From a virus (taxonomy: Duplodnaviria; Heunggongvirae; Uroviricota; Caudoviricetes), in the IMG/VR virus record IMGVR_UViG_2660238209_000013, positions 1 through 7,328 of that record: a DNA stretch of 7,328 nucleotides; one strand, 5' to 3'. The notes beneath the pieces were generated by a model that saw only the letters and a list, made by a program, of their open reading frames with translations, searched no databases and was not told the origin of the DNA. A program made the translations under genes and the position numbers. This document shows positions 2,388 to 7,328 of the stretch, piece after piece; the first letter of the stretch is position 1, and every line of letters starts with the position of its first letter.

Positions 2388-2406
2388 TGGGGCTGTCCTT
2401 TTTACC
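2376..2406. terminator. Bidirectional rho-independent terminator between the convergent portal gene and the 174-aa gene
   Basis: Stem cagcccc (2377-2383) / ggggctg (2389-2395) with loop gtgat. It is flanked by an A-run upstream (aaaaaa, 2371-2376) and a T-run downstream (ccttttta, 2397-2404), so either strand gives hairpin plus U-tract. It overlaps the Q stop (2385-2387) and the TAA stop of the minus-strand gene (2402-2404). Confidence 0.6.
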
Positions 2407-2926
2407 AGAGTTGAACCATTTTCTGGGTGCCGTCAGGCTTGAGATTATCAATTTCAGAGAGAACGTAATATTGAATGGCTTCACAAACGGTGGTGTAGGG
2501 TGAATTACCTTCTTTAAGTGGCACGATATTATTATTAACGCGAACCTGTATTTCATCGTTATACATTGCGATCGAAAGAGGAGTATGCACGAAGGCGACT
2601 TCGCCAGGTGTGTCGTCAACCACTGTCTCAATGCTGAAAATCAGTTTTCGCTCATCATTGCCGCCCCTTGCTTTGGGGGTAGAGGCAGGAATCTGAGATA
2701 AAGGCATTCTGCGAAACCCTTCAGTTGTTTCCAGTCCGCATGAAACGTAATGCTGGCGATTACCGTCGCTATCAGTCCATGTCTGTGATGGCAGCTCCAG
2801 AGAGATTTCATAAGCATCTACAATTCCCTGAGCAAGGTGTACAAGCGGGGTCAGATCTTCATTGCGGCGAAAACTTTCCTTTACCTGCTCTCGTTTTTCT
2901 CGTAACTGCTTGTAATTAATGACCAT
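2402..2926 (-). CDS. Hypothetical protein, 174 aa, no family recognised; cargo gene in the Q-A accessory region
   Basis: ORF track gives 2402..2965 from a GTG. I prefer the internal ATG at 2924-2926 (protein begins MVINYKQLREK) because a GGAGG Shine-Dalgarno lies 8 nt upstream on the minus strand (AATGGAGGCTGTTTTATG). Ends with TAA at 2402-2404 inside the bidirectional terminator. Mixed-charge, globular-looking composition with no obvious transmembrane segment. Confidence 0.6.
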   Translation of the reverse strand: MVINYKQLREKREQVKESFRRNEDLTPLVHLAQGIVDAYEISLELPSQTWTDSDGNRQHYVSCGLETTEGFRRMPLSQIPASTPKARGGNDERKLIFSIETVVDDTPGEVAFVHTPLSIAMYNDEIQVRVNNNIVPLKEGNSPYTTVCEAIQYYVLSEIDNLKPDGTQKMVQLW

Positions 2927-3025
2927 AAAACAGCCTCCATTGATTTCTTTGCTCGTATTTTGCACTTATGAAGTGTGGTCGGCAAGGTGCCGCATCACTG
3001 ACGCGCTTCGCTTGTCTGCTGCTTC

Positions 3026-3054: not shown

Positions 3055-3343
3055 TCTCCAGCTCCTGTATCAATCAGATAATTTCACGACGCCTTCCAGT
3101 TTATCGCCACCATCGACGGTCAGACTCTTACGCAATCCCACCGCGTTGACTGTATGTTCTCGCTGCCTCAGTGCGATTTTGACGGCCTTACCTTTCACCC
3201 CATCAAATCAAAAGCCCTCACGCCTTTTTCATGCTCAGCGTGAGAAATATGGCCATTCTGTTGTGTCTCTGCGACATCGTTCAGGGAATGCTGTTTACCC
3301 CCCTGAAACGCGGGCTGTTCCCCCGTCACCTGCGCGTAGAAAA

Positions 3344-3390
3344 AACGCGTTTTTTGTGCACGTACGGATCCTTGACGGATCCAGCCGCCA
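3344..3390. repeat. Cluster of short palindromes and a direct repeat (aaaaaacgcgtttttt; gtgcac; cgtacg; acggatcc ttg acggatcc)
   Basis: Read directly: aaaaaacgcgtttttt (3344-3359) is self-complementary. acggatcc occurs twice, 3 bp apart (3363-3370 and 3374-3381), each containing the palindrome ggatcc. Confidence 0.7.
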
Positions 3391-3425
3391 CGCGGGCCGG
3401 AAGTACAAAAAGTCGTTCAAAAAAA

Positions 3426-3455
3426 TTGTGCAAACTTGTGCACTATCGTGCAAAC
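3426..3455. repeat. Three GTGCA(A/C) repeats phased ~10 bp apart (ttgtgcaaac / ttgtgcac / cgtgcaaac); candidate iterons or operator
   Basis: GTGCAAAC at 3428-3435, GTGCAC at 3438-3443, GTGCAAAC at 3448-3455. The ~10-bp (one helical turn) spacing is typical of protein-binding iterons. A further GTGCAC is at 3355-3360. Confidence 0.5.
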
Positions 3456-3480
3456 AAAAAAAAGCGCCTTATCGGCGCTT
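3456..3480 (-). terminator. Rho-independent terminator of the 89-aa ORF transcript
   Basis: On the minus strand: stem aagcgcc / ggcgctt (plus-strand 3462-3468 and 3474-3480), 5-nt loop, followed by an 8-nt U-run (plus-strand A-run 3456-3463). It starts 9 bp downstream of the ORF stop (TGA, plus-strand 3489-3491). Confidence 0.65.
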
Positions 3481-3488
3481 CAAAAATA

Positions 3489-3758
3489 TCAATTGTTGCT
3501 GTGTATTAATCGCCAACCACGAACATATGCTTCATAAGCATCTCTGTGCCTTACAGTTCCAGCCTGGCTAAACGGAATGTTAGCTAAAACTAAATCATTC
3601 TGAGCCATAGCGCGTCCTTCAAGCGCATCTTTTATGCCTAGCTCAAAAGCACAGGCAGCGCATTTGTGCCGACCTTCTTGTCCTTGATATTCAGGGAGAG
3701 ACAGAAATGTTGGGTTATAACGATGAGGGTTCTTGCAAATACCTGTTTTAGCCCGCAC
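3489..3758 (-). CDS. Hypothetical small protein, 89 aa, GTG start; contains Cys8 and a CxxC at residues 33-36
   Basis: ORF with GTG start (plus-strand 3756-3758) preceded by a GAGGT Shine-Dalgarno 6 nt upstream (ATGAGGTAAATAAGTG) and an in-frame TAA immediately before the GTG. Followed by an intrinsic terminator. Preceded by a structured, terminator-like leader. No family recognised; coding status not certain. Confidence 0.4.
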   Translation of the reverse strand: MRAKTGICKNPHRYNPTFLSLPEYQGQEGRHKCAACAFELGIKDALEGRAMAQNDLVLANIPFSQAGTVRHRDAYEAYVRGWRLIHSNN

Positions 3759-3775
3759 TTTATTTACCTCATAGG

Positions 3776-3959
3776 AAAAATATGCGTGCCTTTACAGAGG
3801 TGCGTGTAAGCAATAAAATATACGACGCACATTTTGATTTACTTCGGAAGGCACGCATATCAGGTTAAGTGAGTCCGACCGAGTTCTACGCCCCAATAGT
3901 TGCTGCTATTGGGGCGTTTTGCATGGACAATGCCGCGCAATTATCTTGTCGCTCACAAT
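3776..3959 (-). ncRNA. Candidate structured 5' leader or small RNA upstream of the 89-aa ORF, ending in a terminator-like hairpin
   Basis: Minus-strand transcript predicted from the promoter at 3967-3994. It contains the antisense of a perfect 12-bp hairpin (3888-3917), then a 13-bp long-range stem (3780-3792 pairing 3848-3860) enclosing a 55-nt loop with its own 6-bp inner stem (gtgcgt 3800-3805 / acgcac 3825-3830). A run of 4 U follows (plus-strand A-run 3776-3779), then the SD and GTG of the 89-aa ORF. Read from sequence; no covariance or expression support. Confidence 0.3.
3888..3921 (+). terminator. Hairpin plus short T-run; possible plus-strand intrinsic terminator (or just a stable hairpin in the minus-strand leader)
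   Basis: Perfect 12-bp stem acgccccaatag (3888-3899) / ctattggggcgt (3906-3917), 6-nt loop, followed by ttt g (3918-3921). No convincing plus-strand promoter found upstream, so function on the plus strand is uncertain. Confidence 0.35.
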
Positions 3960-3966
3960 GCGAACG

Positions 3967-3994
3967 ATCTTACAAAAAGGCACATTACTGTCAA
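3967..3994 (-). promoter_or_regulatory. Strong sigma70-like promoter on the minus strand (TTGACA - 16 nt - TAAGAT) with AT-rich upstream region
   Basis: Minus-strand sequence attatcTTGACAgtaatgtgcctttttgTAAGATcgttcg. The -35 is a perfect TTGACA (plus-strand 3989-3994), spacer 16 nt, -10 TAAGAT (plus-strand 3967-3972). The upstream 60 bp is AT-rich (UP-element-like). A GATC (3966-3969) overlaps the -10. Confidence 0.5.
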
Positions 3995-4122
3995 GATAAT
4001 TGATCGTTTTAATCGATAGATAATAGACAATCTATTTGTTTAACAGATCGATTATTGAAGTAAGTGCGCCAAATGGAATGATACTGTTTCTATAAATGTG
4101 AGCATTTTTCGCGCAGATGCTT

Positions 4123-4434
4123 TTACTCAGGAAATAACGCCCGGATATTCCCAGCCATCTGGCTGGTTATCTTAGCCACTGGTGCAGACTGTGCTTCAAA
4201 CTTTTTTGAGCTGATTTGTGTCACAGGTAACATCTCATCATCAGCCCATGCGGCCAGTCGGTAAGCCTCTGCCGGATTCGTCTTCAGAAGTGCCAGCCCG
4301 GCCAGAAAAGCCACGCGTTGGCCGCTTTTGCGGGCTTCTGGTGTAAGGCTGTCCAGCCAGGCGCATGCTTCTCCTTCGTTCTTGACGGCAGCTGGCTTCA
4401 GATAGAAACTTATTCTTCTGGTTGGTGTCGTCAT
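4123..4434 (-). CDS. parR: ParR/StbB-like small DNA-binding protein (putative centromere-binding adaptor), 103 aa
   Basis: Immediately downstream of the ParM-like gene (4-nt gap). Strong AAGGAG Shine-Dalgarno 7 nt upstream of the ATG, inside the end of the upstream gene. Size and motifs (N-terminal RRISFYLKP, AGLAL, C-terminal LFPE) resemble plasmid R1 ParR as I recall it. Gene order repeats-parM-parR matches R1 parC-parM-parR. Confidence 0.7.
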   Translation of the reverse strand: MTTPTRRISFYLKPAAVKNEGEACAWLDSLTPEARKSGQRVAFLAGLALLKTNPAEAYRLAAWADDEMLPVTQISSKKFEAQSAPVAKITSQMAGNIRALFPE

Positions 4435-4438
4435 TGGT

Positions 4439-5398
4439 TTACTCCTTGTTCATTGCGTACAGCCCATTAACCAGAGCAAAATGTGGCACCCCGTCCGTGA
4501 TGAAAGTCGCATTAACTCCGCAGGCTTCGCGGATAGCGGGTGCCACAATCTCCGCCCCTCCACCGACAACCATCACCCGCCCGTAACCGGAAAAACCCGC
4601 CAGCGCGCGGATCACTCGTTGTTTCAGTGTCTCCTCCTTTTCACGAATAACCGCCATCAGGCTGTTGTAATGCGCGTCATTGTGAATGTGCTGGCGCAGC
4701 CAGGCTTCATCGTGACGGTGCTCAATAATGGTATTGGCGATGTGGTGACTGGTACGCATACCGTTAGTGGCCATCACCGACAGCACGGCATCAGCCATCA
4801 GGGAAACGCCTACGTGTGGATCGCAAAACACCTGGCTGATACCTGCCAGCTGCCCCTGAACCTTTGCCACATCCAGCGTGGTTCCGCCCAAATCCACAAT
4901 CAGCAGGGATTCAAACGGACTCATGTCAGCCAGTGCCTTAAAGCCAGCCGGAATGGATTCAGGCATAACCCGCACGTTACGGATAGTGAATGCTTCGCCG
5001 TTCTGGTACTCCACCGGGCGCATAACGTTCGCTTTTTTGCGGTTGATGTTGGCTATGTCCGGCTGTGCGTTTGTGTCGAAATACTCGCTCAGTGGCAGGG
5101 TGACAACCACATCCACCTCCTGTGGCGTGATGCCTGATTTGACCAGCGCGTGATGAATGGCAATGACATTCACATCACTGTATTGGTATTGCGTGTCGGT
5201 CGTCTGGACAAAGCGATCGCTGACCGGATCAAAACCATAGCGCACGCCATCAAGCATGTAGTTCGCGGGCTGCGTGCCACCGAACGGCGCAGACCATTCC
5301 GACTTGAAGCTGTTCGGGCTGATGGCGTTGCGGCGTTCGCCGTTCTCAGTCCATGCCAGCTTGATGTTGGTGGAGCCGTCGTCGATACAAATTTTCAT
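4439..5398 (-). CDS. parM: ParM/StbA-family actin-like segregation ATPase, 319 aa
   Basis: ATG at plus-strand 5396-5398 with an AAGGA Shine-Dalgarno ~8 nt upstream. The translation carries the ParM/actin-fold signatures throughout: N-terminal DDGSTNIKL (phosphate-1), SPNSF, YSDVNVIAIHHAL, VMPESIPAG, IVDLGGTTLD (phosphate-2), GGGAE (adenosine motif) and C-terminal LVNG. It appears collinear with plasmid R1 ParM over the full length (from memory). Confidence 0.88.
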   Translation of the reverse strand: MKICIDDGSTNIKLAWTENGERRNAISPNSFKSEWSAPFGGTQPANYMLDGVRYGFDPVSDRFVQTTDTQYQYSDVNVIAIHHALVKSGITPQEVDVVVTLPLSEYFDTNAQPDIANINRKKANVMRPVEYQNGEAFTIRNVRVMPESIPAGFKALADMSPFESLLIVDLGGTTLDVAKVQGQLAGISQVFCDPHVGVSLMADAVLSVMATNGMRTSHHIANTIIEHRHDEAWLRQHIHNDAHYNSLMAVIREKEETLKQRVIRALAGFSGYGRVMVVGGGAEIVAPAIREACGVNATFITDGVPHFALVNGLYAMNKE

Positions 5399-5427: not shown

Positions 5428-5541
5428 CGTTTACGGGATTCTGAAATCCCGTTTTTGCCTGTTTTGTGCGCGCTTCATATATCGCTGCGCGTTTTTTGCT
5501 CATTTACGGGATTCGTGAGTCCCGTTTCTGTCTGTTTTTTG
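5428..5541. repeat. Two ~40-bp direct repeats, each containing an 8-bp-arm palindrome (acgggatt ... aatcccgt) followed by a T-rich tract; candidate parC-like centromere or operator
   Basis: Copy 1 tttacgggattctgaaatcccgtttttgcctgttttgtg (5430-5468) and copy 2 tttacgggattcgtgagtcccgtttctgtctgttttttg (5503-5541) are ~80% identical, 73 bp apart. Copy 1 lies between the A stop and the parM start; copy 2 lies inside the last ~25 codons of the A reading frame. Confidence 0.5.
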
Positions 5542-6916
5542 TTTCCACTGGTCAGGCCACCCTGCAGCAGGTCTGCTTTGCGGCTGGCGCGTTCAGTGGT
5601 TTCACTGATTCTCTGTGCGTGCTCTGCGTCGCGGATGGCGCGCAGCATGTCAGAAAGCACGGTAACGGGTGTTTTCATGGTGTTCTGATCCTGCTGAAGT
5701 GCGGATGCCAGGCGTGCGGCGGCTTCGGGGTCTGATGCCCCCAGCTGTGCCAGATAGCTGGCGACCGGGTTATGGCGGATCTCCGTGCTGCTTACGCCGT
5801 GATTACGGCTCAGGTGCTGCCAGAGCTGCGTGATTCGGCTGTCCGGGCGGGGATCCGGTTTGCGTACAATTTCATATCCCTGCGGTGCAATGATGCTGCC
5901 GTCAACGTACAGGCTGCCGCCCCGTAGCAGGTGCTGCATCTGCTGTTCACCGATATGCAGGCCGAGAGATTCGGCAGACTCCCGCCATTCTTTAGCGAGT
6001 AATTCGTGGTTATCAGGCAAAGGCCGCTGCTGTTTGCGGCTCTGTGTCCAGCTCTGCATTTCATCACTGCTGTTTTTTGCCTGTTTGTCACGAAGCGAAC
6101 GCATCAGCGCCCGGCGTTCGTGCCGTTTCAGTGAGCGCATCCATTCGTTCACTTCAACGCCGTCAGGGAGCTGCGGCCACGGTGCTGGCCGTTCTTCCGG
6201 CTGTTCTGCCCCGTTGTTGTCCGTTTCCTGTACACGGGGACAGTTATTGCCACGAGTCCAAGGGGCGGCAGGGCCGCCCTGAAGGTCAAAACCATTTTCG
6301 CGGGCGCTGTCTTCCGTTTCCGGTTTACGTCTTACCAGTTTCCAGTTATCCGGATGCGTGCACACACGGGAGGATTCCCCGATGAGTGGTGACCAGATCC
6401 CGTAAATCTGTACGCTCTGTTCGCCGTAATCATTCAGCTCATCTGCGAGGTCGTAGGCGGTGCGAATCAGGTAGTCTTTGCGTGGAACAAGTACGCCGCC
6501 CTGTTTTTCAATGTAGGTGGCAAAACACCCGGCATCGGCGGCAGCGAGTACCGCATCCATTGCATCATCTTTCAGCCGTTGCGGGCCTTCCGGATTGCGT
6601 GCCATCTGGCTGGCAAGGCGGCGCAGTTCACGCCACACCTGACGGGAGGGGATGCCAAAGAACTGGAACTGACGGACCCGGTGAAGGCGCGCCCAGCCGA
6701 TGGCGCGCTCCACGCTCTCGGCCATTGATTTTCCGGTTTCGTGGTCAACGCGTGGCTTGCCCGTTTTCGGGTCGATGCCATCCACGGCGCGGCTGTCCAG
6801 GTTCTTTCCGATGTAGGTGGCGATGTAGCTGGTTGGTGTGCCTTTTGAGCCGTCGACATACTCCGCCTTAAAACGCGGAGTTATGTCATCGCCCAGCTCG
6901 TGGCGGTCCTCCTGAA
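5475..6916 (-). pseudogene. A: 3' portion of a gpA-like rolling-circle replication initiator (phage replication endonuclease), N-terminal part removed by IS insertion
   Basis: The minus-strand frame is open from the IS boundary (~6917) to the stop at 5475-5477 (ORF track starts at GTG 6785 but no stop intervenes upstream). I translated the sequence just inside the boundary as ...GSKGTPTSYIATYIGKNLDSRAVDGIDPK..., which contains a Y-x-x-x-Y-x-x-K motif (codons at plus-strand 6813-6827) like the paired catalytic tyrosines of P2 A and phiX174 gene A proteins. The frame runs straight into the IS terminal repeat. Position opposite Q across the accessory region matches P2 gene order. Confidence 0.65.
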
Positions 6917-6970
6917 TGAACCGCCCCGGAAATCCTGGAGACTAAACTCCCTGAGAAAGAGGTAAACAGG

Positions 6971-7297
6971 ATGACTAAAAATACTCGTTTTTCCCCCGAA
7001 GTCCGTCAGCGGGCGATTCGTATGGTTCTGGAAAGTCAGGATGAATATGACTCACAGTGGGCGGCAATTTGTTCCATTGCCCCAAAGATTGGCTGTACGC
7101 CGGAGACTCTGCGTGTCTGGGTTCGCCAGCATGAGCGGGATACCGGGGGCGGTGATGGTGGGCTCACCAGCGCTGAACGTCAGCGTCTGAAAGAGCTGGA
7201 ACGTGAAAATCGTGAACTGCGCCGCAGTAACGATATCCTTCGCCAGGCTTCCGCTTATTTTGCGAAGGCGGAGTTCGACCGCCTCTGGAAAAAATGA
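6971..7297 (+). CDS. IS3-family transposase OrfA (helix-turn-helix / leucine-zipper subunit), 108 aa
   Basis: Complete ORF. Protein [23 protein letters not shown]...[36 protein letters not shown] has the typical IS3-family OrfA HTH plus coiled-coil and a C-terminus ending at the frameshift window. AGG Shine-Dalgarno-like GAGG at 6958-6961. Confidence 0.9.
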
Positions 7298-7328
7298 TGC
7301 CACTGCTGGATAAGCTGCGTGAGCAGTA
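7294..7328 (+). CDS. IS3-family transposase OrfB (DDE catalytic subunit), 5' end only; expressed by -1 frameshift from orfA
   Basis: ATGATGCCACTGCTGGATAAGCTGCGTGAGCAG (7294 onward) translates [11 protein letters not shown], which matches the IS629-type OrfB N-terminus as I recall it. It is in the -1 frame relative to orfA and overlaps its stop. Runs off the window. Confidence 0.7.

What the first reader, a model, noticed from the sequence alone, without database searches (positions are those of the whole stretch)
3489..3758. Small Cys-containing 89-aa ORF with own SD and terminator, gated by the structured leader
The ORF has a plausible RBS (GAGGT), a clean intrinsic terminator 9 bp past its stop and a terminator-like leader, i.e. 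a self-contained and apparently tightly regulated small gene in a cargo hotspot. It contains Cys8, His12, His31 and Cys33-x-x-Cys36, which could form a metal-binding knuckle. Tightly controlled small proteins in such regions are often toxins, anti-defence factors or regulators. I do not recognise the family.
Basis: partly seen in the sequence, partly recalled or inferred. Interest (0 to 1): 0.4.

Follow-up and report, generated by a model that had tools for sequence, protein, structure and literature searches.

The report
Small zinc protein with antisense RNA
The 89-residue ORF is a real, strongly conserved gene for a small, probably zinc-binding protein of unknown function, carried as a self-contained cassette in a P2-like E. 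coli prophage; elsewhere its family sits inside GATC-type restriction-modification operons or is fused to nucleases, and in phages it is guarded by an antisense RNA that is absent from Rfam and by a GATC-rich promoter.

Summary
ORF 3489-3758 lies on the minus strand, with a GTG start, a GAGGT Shine-Dalgarno, its own promoter-like site and its own terminator. It is a genuine gene: full-length match to phrog_3941 (E 6e-49), over 1,600 homologue clusters, dN/dS 0.02-0.14. C8, H12, H31, C33 and C36 are invariant or nearly so.

The protein is an internal duplication of a ~35-residue motif (LPxxQGGxGRHKCxxCAYxxG). The AlphaFold2 model is confident (pLDDT 87). It has no Pfam family and no structural neighbour.

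In cellular genomes the family sits in Dam-family methylase / DpnII-type operons. It is also fused to NOV_C, HNH and HEPN nucleases, DndB-like and WYL proteins.

The "structured leader" is partly reinterpreted. Its conserved content is a convergent sigma-70-type promoter (TTTACA-17-TAnnnT) and a two-hairpin antisense RNA (window ~3826-3920, + strand). The hairpins are supported by covariation and the RNA matches no Rfam family. GATC sites flank or overlap the sense promoter and are about 5.7-fold enriched.

Best reading: a stand-alone DNA-binding or regulatory module linked to GATC adenine methylation, expressed under antisense-RNA and probably Dam control. Its exact role is unproven: regulator, restriction alleviation or toxin.

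The parts
3489..3758 (-). CDS, 89 aa, GTG start. Two-repeat Cys/His protein of family phrog_3941. Repeat 1 is about residues 15-47 with C8, H12, H31, C33 and C36. Repeat 2 is about residues 55-87 and lacks Cys.
3766..3770 (-). Shine-Dalgarno GAGGT, 7 nt upstream of the GTG.
   Evidence: GAGGT is conserved in the diverged relatives L126/L129/L130, where the start codon shifts out of register, which marks the true 5' end of the frame.
3451..3481 (-). Intrinsic terminator of the cassette: stem 3481-3461, then a T run.
   Evidence: An equivalent terminator follows the homologue in phage BIS08P22.
3967..3994 (-). Sense promoter: TTGACA (3994-3989), 16 nt, TAAGAT (3972-3967). The -10 hexamer overlaps GATC 3966-3969. 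Predicted start of transcription is about 3960.
   Evidence: The same -35/-10 arrangement, often TAGGATC or TATGATC, is present in diverged phage homologues.
3966..4049 (.). GATC cluster at 3966-3969, 4002-4005 and 4046-4049. These are the only GATC sites between 3379 and 4609. One overlaps the -10 hexamer and one lies 7 nt upstream of the -35 hexamer.
3995..4065 (-). Conserved AT-rich block upstream of the -35 hexamer, with short palindromes (ATCTGTT/AACAAAT, ATAGAT/ATCTAT). It is an unassigned protein-binding candidate: an operator of the cassette, or a site belonging to the neighbouring ParM/StbB partition module.
   Evidence: about 75-90% identical in relatives whose protein is only about 60% identical
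3759..3960 (-). 5' leader of the mRNA, about 200 nt and strongly structured.
3776..3860 (-). Long leader hairpin (arms 3860-3848 and 3792-3780) followed by TTTT. It is terminator-like on the sense strand. It is specific to this lineage and not conserved in diverged homologues.
3791..3819 (+). Antisense promoter: TTTACA (3791-3796), 17 nt, TAAAAT (3814-3819).
   Evidence: TTTAC(A/T)-17-TAnnnT is present in every one of the 24 phage upstream sequences in which the TTTAC(A/T) anchor was found.
3826..3920 (+). Predicted cis-antisense sRNA, about 95 nt, complementary to leader positions about -68 to -162 relative to the GTG. It ends at GC hairpin 3888-3917 plus a T run.
   Evidence: (covariance-model hit 3869-3925 +, E 0.0023)

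Best explanation
The ORF encodes a real small protein built from two copies of a ~35-residue motif. The first copy carries a Cys/His (C8, H12, C33, C36, possibly H31) zinc site.

The protein is the stand-alone form of a widespread, uncharacterised domain. In cellular genomes that domain is an accessory part of Dam-family methylase / DpnII-type (GATC) restriction-modification operons. It is also fused to several kinds of nuclease, to DndB-like proteins and to WYL proteins.

The most likely activity is nucleic-acid (DNA) binding, used for regulation or targeting and tied to the adenine-methylation state of GATC DNA.

In temperate enterobacterial phages the gene travels as an autonomous moron cassette: promoter, ~200-nt leader, ORF, terminator. 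Expression is gated in two ways. A constitutive-looking convergent promoter makes a ~70-95-nt two-hairpin antisense RNA against the leader. GATC sites next to the -35 hexamer and over the -10 hexamer of the sense promoter probably make transcription sensitive to host Dam methylation. The protein would then be made mainly when the phage DNA is un- or hemimethylated, that is on entry or during replication.

Shown here: gene reality, family, repeats, conserved ligands, genomic associations, the antisense promoter and hairpins, and GATC enrichment.
Inferred: zinc binding, DNA binding, methylation sensing, Dam control, and the direction of antisense regulation.
For: Gene and family:
- phrog_3941 match at E 6e-49.
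- 172 representatives and 1,601 homologue clusters.
- Invariant C8, H12, R30, G41, Q65, R70; near-invariant H31, C33, C36.
- dN/dS 0.017-0.14.
- The two halves are homologous: hhalign probability 96.8%, E 2.8e-10.
- AlphaFold2 model pLDDT 87.2, pTM 0.81.

Link to restriction-modification:
- Among 80 GTDB loci, a Dam-type D12 methylase lies within 4 genes in 35, an N6_N4 methylase in 20, DpnII in 13, and a DUF6996/6997/7226 protein in 12. Operon orders recur (also 28-31, 91).
- The methylase scores as TIGR00571 'dam'.

Fusions:
- NOV_C proteins that match PADLOC candidate PDC-S36, plus HNH_2, HNH, HEPN (weak), DndB/DpdB-like and WYL.
- A DndB::domain fusion sits inside a D12-DpnII-N6_N4 operon.
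- The same contextual logic was used to predict RAMA and HARE-HTH as m6A-discriminating domains (PMC4738411).

Cassette in unrelated phage positions:
- After cI in P22-like and other phages, between Q and the lysis genes, after a c4/ant region, and next to cos in P2-like phages.

Antisense RNA:
- TTTAC(A/T)-17-TAnnnT in all 24 phage upstream sequences in which the anchor was found.
- The covariance model finds the RNA in 26 phage or prophage loci and in the window at E <= 0.003, always antisense to the gene.
- 13 of 18 pairs show compensatory changes and 96% of cells are paired. The covariation score is 0.411 against 0.127 in shuffles and 0.02-0.08 in slid controls.
- G-U cells outnumber A-C cells 28 to 2, which places the selected helices on the antisense strand.

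GATC:
- 62 sites observed against 10.9 expected in the 270 bp upstream, across 17 upstream-sequence clusters.
- Positions are conserved at the sense -35 and -10 hexamers.
Against: - There is no direct evidence for zinc or DNA binding.
- There is no HTH or other known DNA-binding fold. Foldseek finds nothing in the PDB or BFVD, so function rests on context alone.
- The window copy is not next to any methylase or nuclease, and the related phage NC_049344 has no methylase gene.
- GATC enrichment is not seen upstream of the R-M-linked homologues. The GATC sites are therefore not a family-wide operator, and they could reflect host Dam regulation unrelated to what the protein does.
- Net charge is only about +4.
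- The window's antisense RNA matches the model weakly (23.9 bits), mainly through the terminator hairpin.
- The covariation alignment was fitted to the model.
- No expression data were examined.
Confidence: 0.5

Rival explanations
1. Type I toxin-antitoxin-like module. The small protein is harmful when made, for example by binding or damaging DNA. The antisense RNA is the antitoxin that keeps translation off by pairing about 70-160 nt upstream of the start codon, as IstR-1 does for tisB or RalA for ralR.
For: - The architecture is typical: an autonomous cassette, a long structured 5' UTR, a cis-antisense RNA with its own strong promoter, and its own terminator, in prophage cargo sites.
- Precedent from my own knowledge: RalR/Lar is a small Zn-ribbon prophage protein, linked to restriction alleviation, that is controlled by an antisense RNA.
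Against: - The protein is hydrophilic with no membrane segment, unlike most type I toxins.
- Most family members sit in R-M operons or pair with effectors in phyla where no antisense partner is evident. Enterobacterial chromosomal copies gave no covariance-model hit.
- No nuclease motif was found.
Confidence: 0.17
2. Restriction alleviation or anti-restriction by protein-protein action. The protein binds Dam-family methylases or their partner nucleases and boosts methylation or blocks cleavage, in the manner of lambda Ral or Rac Lar. A phage whose DNA is undermethylated at GATC would thereby be protected. The GATC-laden promoter gives negative feedback once the DNA is methylated.
For: - The constant partner across operons is the D12/Dam-family methylase, while the nuclease varies: DpnII, PDDEXK_11-like, or DUF6996/7.
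- The phage copies occur in Dam+ enterobacteria and have GATC-rich control regions.
Against: - Fusion of the domain to nucleases, HEPN and WYL fits a nucleic-acid-binding or sensor module better than a methylase-binding peptide.
- The family is almost absent from plasmids, 12 of 72,556, where early anti-restriction genes usually ride.
- Location right after cI with its own promoter in several phages suggests a role in the lysogen.
Confidence: 0.15
3. Methylation-blind transcription factor. The protein is a zinc-based analogue of R-M controller (C) proteins or defence-island regulators. The phage copy is an orphan regulator that autoregulates, or that interferes with homologous regulators of incoming or resident systems.
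For: - It is a small first or last gene of R-M operons.
- It is the first gene of two-gene units with variable effectors next to integrases in Enterobacteriaceae.
- It is fused to WYL and DndB-like regulators.
- There is a conserved palindromic block upstream of the promoter.
Against: - This does not explain the fusions to NOV_C, HNH and HEPN nucleases as well as a targeting domain does.
- It does not explain the specific tie to Dam-family methylases.
- No common operator motif was found upstream of the homologues: only three upstream regions were inspected by eye before the script failed, so this was barely tested.
Confidence: 0.13
4. The RNA is the main product. The antisense sRNA acts in trans on host or phage targets, and the ORF is secondary or decaying.
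For: The sRNA promoter and hairpins are at least as conserved in architecture as the rest of the leader.
Against: - The ORF is under strong purifying selection.
- The ORF is conserved far beyond the range of the sRNA, across many phyla.
- The sRNA always accompanies the ORF in the loci examined.
Confidence: 0.04

Closest known systems
PHROG family phrog_3941 (unknown function)
   Same: Full-length profile match, residues 4-89 to profile positions 1-86, E 6e-49. This is the family the ORF belongs to.
   Different: The catalogue gives no function, and nothing about R-M linkage, repeats, a metal site or an antisense RNA.
Controller (C) proteins of type II restriction-modification systems
   Same: Small (80-100 aa) accessory genes placed at the edge of R-M operons, as many homologues of this ORF are.
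   Different: C proteins are Xre-type helix-turn-helix proteins. This protein has no HTH hit and a Cys/His two-repeat architecture. The window copy is an orphan with no R-M genes nearby.
RAMA and HARE-HTH domains (predicted m6A-discriminating modules; PMC4738411)
   Same: The same contextual signature: association with N6-adenine methylases and fusion to an array of endonuclease domains.
   Different: No sequence or detectable structural relationship. This domain is much smaller and cysteine-based.
Lambda Ral and Rac prophage Lar/RalR-RalA
   Same: Small prophage-encoded proteins connected with restriction-modification. RalR is a zinc-ribbon-like protein kept in check by a cis antisense RNA (my own knowledge).
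   Different: No homology: no Pfam hit of any kind at E <= 0.1 apart from a spurious one. Ral and Lar act on type I EcoKI, whereas this family is tied to Dam/DpnII-type systems.
IS10 pIN/RNA-OUT and traJ/FinP control
   Same: A sense promoter whose -10 hexamer overlaps GATC, plus a convergent promoter making an antisense RNA against the 5' end of the mRNA. Known logic: expression bursts when DNA is hemimethylated (my own knowledge).
   Different: Unrelated sequences and a different cargo gene. The antisense RNA pairs well upstream of the SD rather than over the start codon. Dam sensitivity is untested here.
PADLOC candidate defence system PDC-S36 (NOV_C/DUF3883 nuclease proteins)
   Same: Proteins matching PDC-S36 (E 1e-48 to 7e-50) carry two N-terminal copies of the same Cys/His motif.
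   Different: The window protein has no nuclease domain and gives no PADLOC hit.
P22 sar RNA and plasmid ctRNAs (Rfam RF00262, RF00236)
   Same: Short phage or plasmid cis-antisense RNAs ending in a GC hairpin. There are weak Rfam hits on hairpin 3888-3917.
   Different: Scores of 22 bits against gathering thresholds of 43-45 bits, covering the terminator hairpin only. The RNA is not a member. Diverged copies give no Rfam hit.

Membership tests
phrog_3941 | Full-length match to the family profile | tested here: met
   E 6.3e-49, 165 bits, residues 4-89 to profile positions 1-86 of 86
Two-repeat Cys/His family (as defined here) | C-x3-H ... G-R-H-K-C-x2-C-A-[YF] core, plus a second Cys-less repeat S-Q-A-G-x-x-R-H-[KR] | tested here: met
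   C8, H12, R30, G41, Q65 and R70 are invariant; H31, C33 and C36 are at least 90% conserved. The halves align at hhalign probability 96.8%.
Two-repeat Cys/His family (as defined here) | Zinc actually bound by C8/H12/C33/C36 | not testable with these tools
   Only ligand conservation and the AlphaFold2 secondary structure are available. No coordinates or metal analysis.
R-M controller (C) proteins | Xre-type helix-turn-helix domain | tested here: not met
   No HTH family among Pfam hits at E <= 0.1; none in NCBIfam
R-M controller (C) proteins | Encoded within an R-M operon | tested here: not met
   Met by many homologues, but the window copy has no methylase or nuclease neighbour.
Lar/RalR or lambda Ral restriction-alleviation proteins | Sequence membership in the Lar or Ral families | tested here: not met
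   No Pfam hit to such a family
Type I toxin-antitoxin systems | Cis-encoded antisense RNA against the toxin mRNA, with its own promoter and terminator | tested here: met
Type I toxin-antitoxin systems | Toxicity of the protein, typically a small hydrophobic peptide | not testable with these tools
   The sequence is hydrophilic. Toxicity needs an experiment.
P2 Ogr/Delta late-gene zinc-finger activators | Match to the Ogr_Delta family | tested here: not met
   No such Pfam or PHROG hit
PADLOC PDC-S36 | NOV_C (restriction-endonuclease-like) effector domain | tested here: not met
   No PADLOC or NOV_C hit for the 89-aa protein. Only the N-terminal motif is shared.
Rfam sar (RF00262) / ctRNA_pGA1 (RF00236) | Score at or above the gathering threshold over the whole model | tested here: not met
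   22 bits against 43-45 bits, hairpin only. No hit in diverged loci.
Dam-controlled promoters (IS10 pIN type) | GATC overlapping the -10 hexamer | tested here: met
   taaGATC at 3972-3966. TAGGATC or TATGATC in 9 of 17 diverged cassettes, read.
Dam-controlled promoters (IS10 pIN type) | Promoter activity changes with methylation state | not testable with these tools
   Needs dam+/dam- reporter assays

The most novel reading that the evidence does not exclude
The two-repeat Cys/His module is a new class of zinc-binding reader of the GATC adenine-methylation state. In cells it couples Dam-family methylation to diverse nucleases: DpnII-type operons and NOV_C, HNH or HEPN fusions. Temperate phages of Dam+ enterobacteria have captured an orphan copy. 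They placed it under a methylation-sensing promoter plus an antisense RNA that Rfam does not hold. The result is a switch that fires only on un- or hemimethylated phage DNA, to alleviate restriction or to exclude unmethylated invaders.
Probability: 0.22. Interest if true: 0.8.

Novelty: new variant of a known kind. Interest (0 to 1): 0.6.

Why it matters
Four reasons if the reading is right.
- It would give a function, and a way to test it, to a protein family with more than a thousand sequence clusters across many bacterial phyla. That family is currently annotated only as 'hypothetical' and is often not called at all in identical E. coli sequences.
- It would add an accessory component to DpnII/Dam-type restriction-modification systems, which are textbook three-gene cassettes.
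- It would add a small domain to the short list of candidate m6A-state readers.
- It would define a phage antisense RNA family with a Dam-linked control logic like that of IS10.

For prophage biology, it marks a portable cassette that inserts at the classic moron sites of unrelated temperate phages: after cI, between Q and the lysis genes, and next to cos.

Tried and rejected
- The first word-indexed homologue search found only 2 near-identical proteins. The exhaustive representative search and a profile search were needed.
- Pfam, NCBIfam and PADLOC gave nothing for the protein itself. The single Pfam line, an O-methyltransferase dimerisation domain at E 0.06 and below cut-off, is noise.
- The PDB sequence search gave only a CxxC-level match to CRIPT at E 0.42. 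I reject it as low-complexity similarity.
- Foldseek against the PDB (best E 2.9) and BFVD (best E 0.75) gave no credible neighbour.
- Rfam hits to sar and ctRNA cover only a generic hairpin.
- The apparent frameshift of the ORF in phage 503458 is not evidence of decay. That record has its portal and ParM genes in pieces too.
- A MAFFT alignment of the antisense RNAs put the stems out of register, and RNAalifold found nothing. A hand-specified structure on six co-linear sequences, followed by covariance-model realignment, resolved it.
- The first GATC statistic was contaminated by an indexing artefact at locus L146. I use instead.
- An eyeball search for a common operator upstream of R-M-linked homologues led nowhere.
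- Literature searches for the motif GRHKC, for PDC-S36, for the DUFs of the partner genes, and for Dam/DpnII accessory zinc proteins found no description of this family.
Full report
**1. What the window is**

The window is part of a P2-like (Peduoviridae, Xuanwuvirus-like) prophage of E. coli.
- Large terminase lies at 37-1341 and portal at 1341-2387, both on the + strand.
- ParM (4439-5398), a StbB-type partition protein (4123-4434) and the C-terminal half of the replication protein gpA (5475-6785) lie on the - strand.
- The stretch 3100-4100 is 97% identical to Escherichia phage 520873.
- The stretch 3400-4130 occurs at 95-100% identity in 166 of 5,426 complete E. coli genomes, always on the chromosome, including O111:H8 strains.
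- The target lies between the partition genes and the cos region. The record ends of related phages place cos near 3385-3407.
- From my own knowledge, this is the right-end cargo region of P2-like genomes, where P2 carries tin and old.

**2. The observation**

The ORF is on the minus strand at 3758-3489: 89 aa, GTG start, GAGGT 7 nt upstream, TGA stop at 3491-3489. A terminator hairpin at 3481-3461 with a T run follows 7-8 nt after the stop.

A sigma-70-like promoter, TTGACA-16-TAAGAT at 3994-3967, gives a leader of about 200 nt. That leader folds much better than shuffles: -73.7 kcal/mol, z = -3.6.

**3. It is a real gene**

- The protein matches phrog_3941 over its whole length (E 6e-49, unknown function).
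- An exhaustive HMMER search found 172 representatives at 50% clustering, mostly 80-100 aa. A profile search found 1,601 clusters at 90%.
- C8, H12, R30, G41, Q65 and R70 are invariant in a 50-sequence alignment of distant members. H31, C33, C36, S64 and H71 are at least 90% conserved.
- dN/dS is 0.017 (39 synonymous against 6 non-synonymous differences), 0.024, 0.05, 0.11 and 0.14 in the pairs where dS is not saturated.
- All 31 near-identical IMG/VR copies are intact.
- The only 'frameshifted' copy is in a phage record whose portal and ParM genes are also fragmented.
- In relatives with about 60% protein identity, the SD is conserved but the start codon sits in a different register. This marks the true N-terminus.

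All sources call the protein 'hypothetical'. In many records with 100% identical DNA no gene is annotated there.

**4. Anatomy of the protein**

The two halves are homologous (hhalign probability 96.8%, E 2.8e-10; residues 15-47 against about 55-87). The protein is therefore an internal duplication of the motif LPxxQ(G/A)GxxRHK-x3-A(Y/F)xxG(Y/W). Only the first copy, with the N-terminal C-x3-H, keeps the Cys/His set.

AlphaFold2 with 56 homologues gives a confident model: pLDDT 87.2, pTM 0.81. Each repeat is a short helix, a knuckle-like loop and a long helix.

No relative was found:
- PDB sequences gave nothing credible.
- Foldseek against the PDB gave a best E of 2.9, and against BFVD a best E of 0.75.
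- Pfam, NCBIfam and PADLOC have no model for it.

Zinc binding is inferred from ligand conservation only.

**5. Where the family lives**

I fetched 80 loci from one-genome-per-species GTDB contigs. They span Proteobacteria, Bacteroidota, Firmicutes, Actinobacteria, Chloroflexi, Myxococcota and Spirochaetes. I called ORFs and clustered the neighbours.

Families found within four genes of the small gene:

| Neighbour family | Loci |
|---|---|
| D12-class adenine methylase | 35 |
| N6_N4 methylase | 20 |
| DpnII endonuclease | 13 |
| DUF6996/6997/7226 protein | 12 |
| PDDEXK_11-type nucleases | smaller numbers |
| DUF3644 HEPN protein | smaller numbers |

The D12 enzyme scores as TIGR00571 'dam family'.

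Operon orders recur (pre-computed gene calls agree):
- D12 - DpnII - (178 aa) - N6_N4 - small
- small - D12 - DpnII - N6_N4
- D12 - DUF6996/7 - small, on Mob_Pre mobilisable elements
- small - D12 - PDDEXK_11

The same motif, often in tandem, is fused to:
- NOV_C nucleases, which match PADLOC candidate PDC-S36
- HNH_2 and HNH nucleases
- a HEPN-like domain
- DndB/DpdB-like proteins
- a WYL protein

These fusions are shown. One DndB::motif fusion sits inside a D12-DpnII-N6_N4 operon.

In Enterobacteriaceae chromosomes the small gene heads two-gene units with a DUF4062 protein or another partner, next to an integrase. It is rare on plasmids, 12 of 72,556.

The constant partner is thus the Dam-family methylase, while the nuclease varies. 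The same pattern, methylase association plus fusion to an array of endonucleases, led Iyer, Zhang and Aravind to predict RAMA and HARE-HTH as m6A-discriminating DNA-binding domains (PMC4738411). By that logic I infer a DNA-binding, methylation-related role. This is inference, not demonstration.

**6. The phage cassette and its control region**

Phage homologues with 41-63% protein identity occur at several classic moron positions:
- directly after the cI repressor in P22-like and other lambdoid phages
- between the Q antiterminator and the lysis genes
- after a c4/isrK immunity region
- after the replication genes
- next to cos in P2-like phages

Most keep a 300-580-bp upstream spacer. The nucleotide sequence there is largely unalignable, yet the architecture is constant.

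- (a) Sense promoter. A TTGA(A/C)(A/G)-type -35 hexamer is followed after 16-17 nt by a -10 hexamer. A GATC lies 6-7 nt upstream of the -35 hexamer in nearly all cassettes. The -10 hexamer overlaps GATC (TAGGATC, TATGATC, or TAAGATC in the window) in 9 of 17.
- (b) GC-rich hairpin. Its T-rich tail is on the strand opposite to the gene.
- (c) Antisense promoter. About 40-50 nt before the start codon lies a conserved TGTAAAG. On the opposite strand this reads as TTTACA, followed after exactly 17 nt by TAnnnT. This arrangement is present in all 24 upstream sequences in which the TTTAC(A/T) anchor was found.

The predicted antisense RNA is 68-97 nt: a 5' tail (GAGAUCUC in many), stem-loop 1, then a terminator stem-loop and a U-rich tail.

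A covariance model built from six co-linear copies finds this RNA in 26 phage or prophage loci and in the window at E <= 0.003. It is always antisense to the gene and 75-150 nt upstream of the start. The window hit is 3869-3925 (+), E 0.0023.

On the resulting alignment:
- 13 of 18 pairs show compensatory changes and 96% of cells pair.
- The covariation score is 0.411, against 0.127 for shuffles and 0.02-0.08 for slid partners.
- G-U cells outnumber A-C cells 28 to 2, as expected if the helices are selected on the antisense strand.
- Caveat: the alignment is fitted to the model.

The RNA is not in Rfam. There are only sub-threshold hairpin hits to sar and ctRNA in the window, and none in diverged loci.

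GATC is 5.7-fold enriched in the 270 bp upstream of the gene: 62 sites against 10.9 expected from the same loci, across 17 upstream clusters. In the window, GATC 3966, 4002 and 4046 are the only sites between 3379 and 4609. This enrichment is not seen upstream of the R-M-linked homologues. I therefore read it as control by host Dam rather than as the protein's own operator.

**7. What this means for the 'structured leader'**

The window's long sense-strand hairpin plus T run (3860-3780) is real, but it is not conserved in diverged cassettes. The conserved features are the antisense RNA gene and the promoter GATCs.

The antisense RNA does not cover the SD. It pairs about 68-162 nt upstream of the GTG. 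From my own knowledge, this recalls the standby-site or leader-remodelling mechanisms of type I toxin-antitoxin pairs such as tisB/IstR-1. The combination of GATC in the -10 hexamer with an antisense RNA recalls IS10 pIN/RNA-OUT and traJ/FinP. Which way the RNA regulates, and whether Dam matters, is inferred.

**8. Best explanation and rivals**

| Reading | Confidence |
|---|---|
| Best: stand-alone copy of an R-M-associated, probably zinc- and DNA-binding module tied to GATC methylation, carried as an autonomous moron and expressed under antisense-RNA and probably Dam control | 0.5 |
| Rival: type I TA-like toxin | 0.17 |
| Rival: Ral/Lar-like modulator of Dam-family methylases or their nucleases | 0.15 |
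| Rival: methylation-blind C-protein-like regulator | 0.13 |
| Rival: an sRNA-centred locus | 0.04 |

Confidence in the component claims is higher:

| Component claim | Confidence |
|---|---|
| Gene is real | about 0.97 |
| Family is linked to R-M | about 0.95 |
| Antisense RNA exists | about 0.85 |
| Metal site | about 0.8 |

**9. Novelty and score**

The family is catalogued only as an unknown PHROG. I found no paper describing it, its R-M linkage or the antisense RNA.

The control logic and the idea of small R-M accessory proteins are known kinds. The domain, its predicted fold and the RNA family appear undescribed. I rate it a new variant of a known kind, interest 0.6. There is a 0.22 chance that it is a truly new class of methylation-state reader with a phage-borne switch.

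Noticed in passing
window 3791-3920 (+): Convergent sigma-70-type promoter and a ~95-nt two-hairpin antisense RNA opposite the leader. It is conserved in architecture across diverged phage cassettes and absent from Rfam. It became part of the main finding.
   Followed up: yes
window 5475-6916 (-) and 6916-7328 (+): The gpA replication gene matches only the C-terminal half of its PHROG profile (positions 434-855). It runs into the end of an IS3-family element: TGAACCGCCCCGG at about 6916, with orfA at 6971-7297, IS629-like from memory. The prophage is probably replication-defective.
   Followed up: partly
window 2402-2965 (-): A 187-aa ORF between the portal gene and cos matches phrog_5091 (unknown function, E 9e-67), with no Pfam, NCBIfam or PADLOC hit. 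It is a second uncharacterised cargo gene and is absent from the related phage 520873.
   Followed up: partly
window 4123-5398 (-): A ParM/StbB plasmid-type partition pair sits inside a chromosomally integrated P2-like prophage, directly upstream of the cassette. The conserved palindromic block at 3995-4065 could belong to it, as a centromere-like site, rather than to the cassette.
   Followed up: no
window 3360-3456: Near the inferred cos site there are two direct copies of ACGGATCC (each containing GATC, at 3367 and 3378) and repeated GTGCAAAC/GTGCAC motifs at 3427-3456. These are possibly terminase or cos-binding repeats.
   Followed up: no
E. coli RefSeq records: In many complete genomes whose DNA is 100% identical to the window over 3400-4130, PGAP annotates no gene for the 89-aa ORF. 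Only the partition protein is listed. The family is therefore under-annotated.
   Followed up: partly
L022, L023, L030, L033, L039 (Citrobacter, Buttiauxella, Klebsiella, Dryocola chromosomes): Homologues head two-gene units with a DUF4062 protein or an unrelated ~400-aa protein, next to an integrase. No antisense-RNA hit was found. These are possibly small defence modules on integrative islands.
   Followed up: partly
L148 1259-1457 (+): A C4 antisense RNA with its a1/b1 targets and isrK (all above the Rfam gathering scores) lies about 1 kb upstream of the cassette in this prophage. The cassette is thus inserted after a P1-type immunity (c4/ant) region.
   Followed up: no
L026, L032, L051, L175 and others: DpnII-type operons carrying the small gene often also carry an extra ~178-aa protein. 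It shares a GSVDEKL motif with PDDEXK_11 nucleases. Some operons also carry a DndB-like protein. These are 'extended' GATC restriction-modification cassettes.
   Followed up: partly
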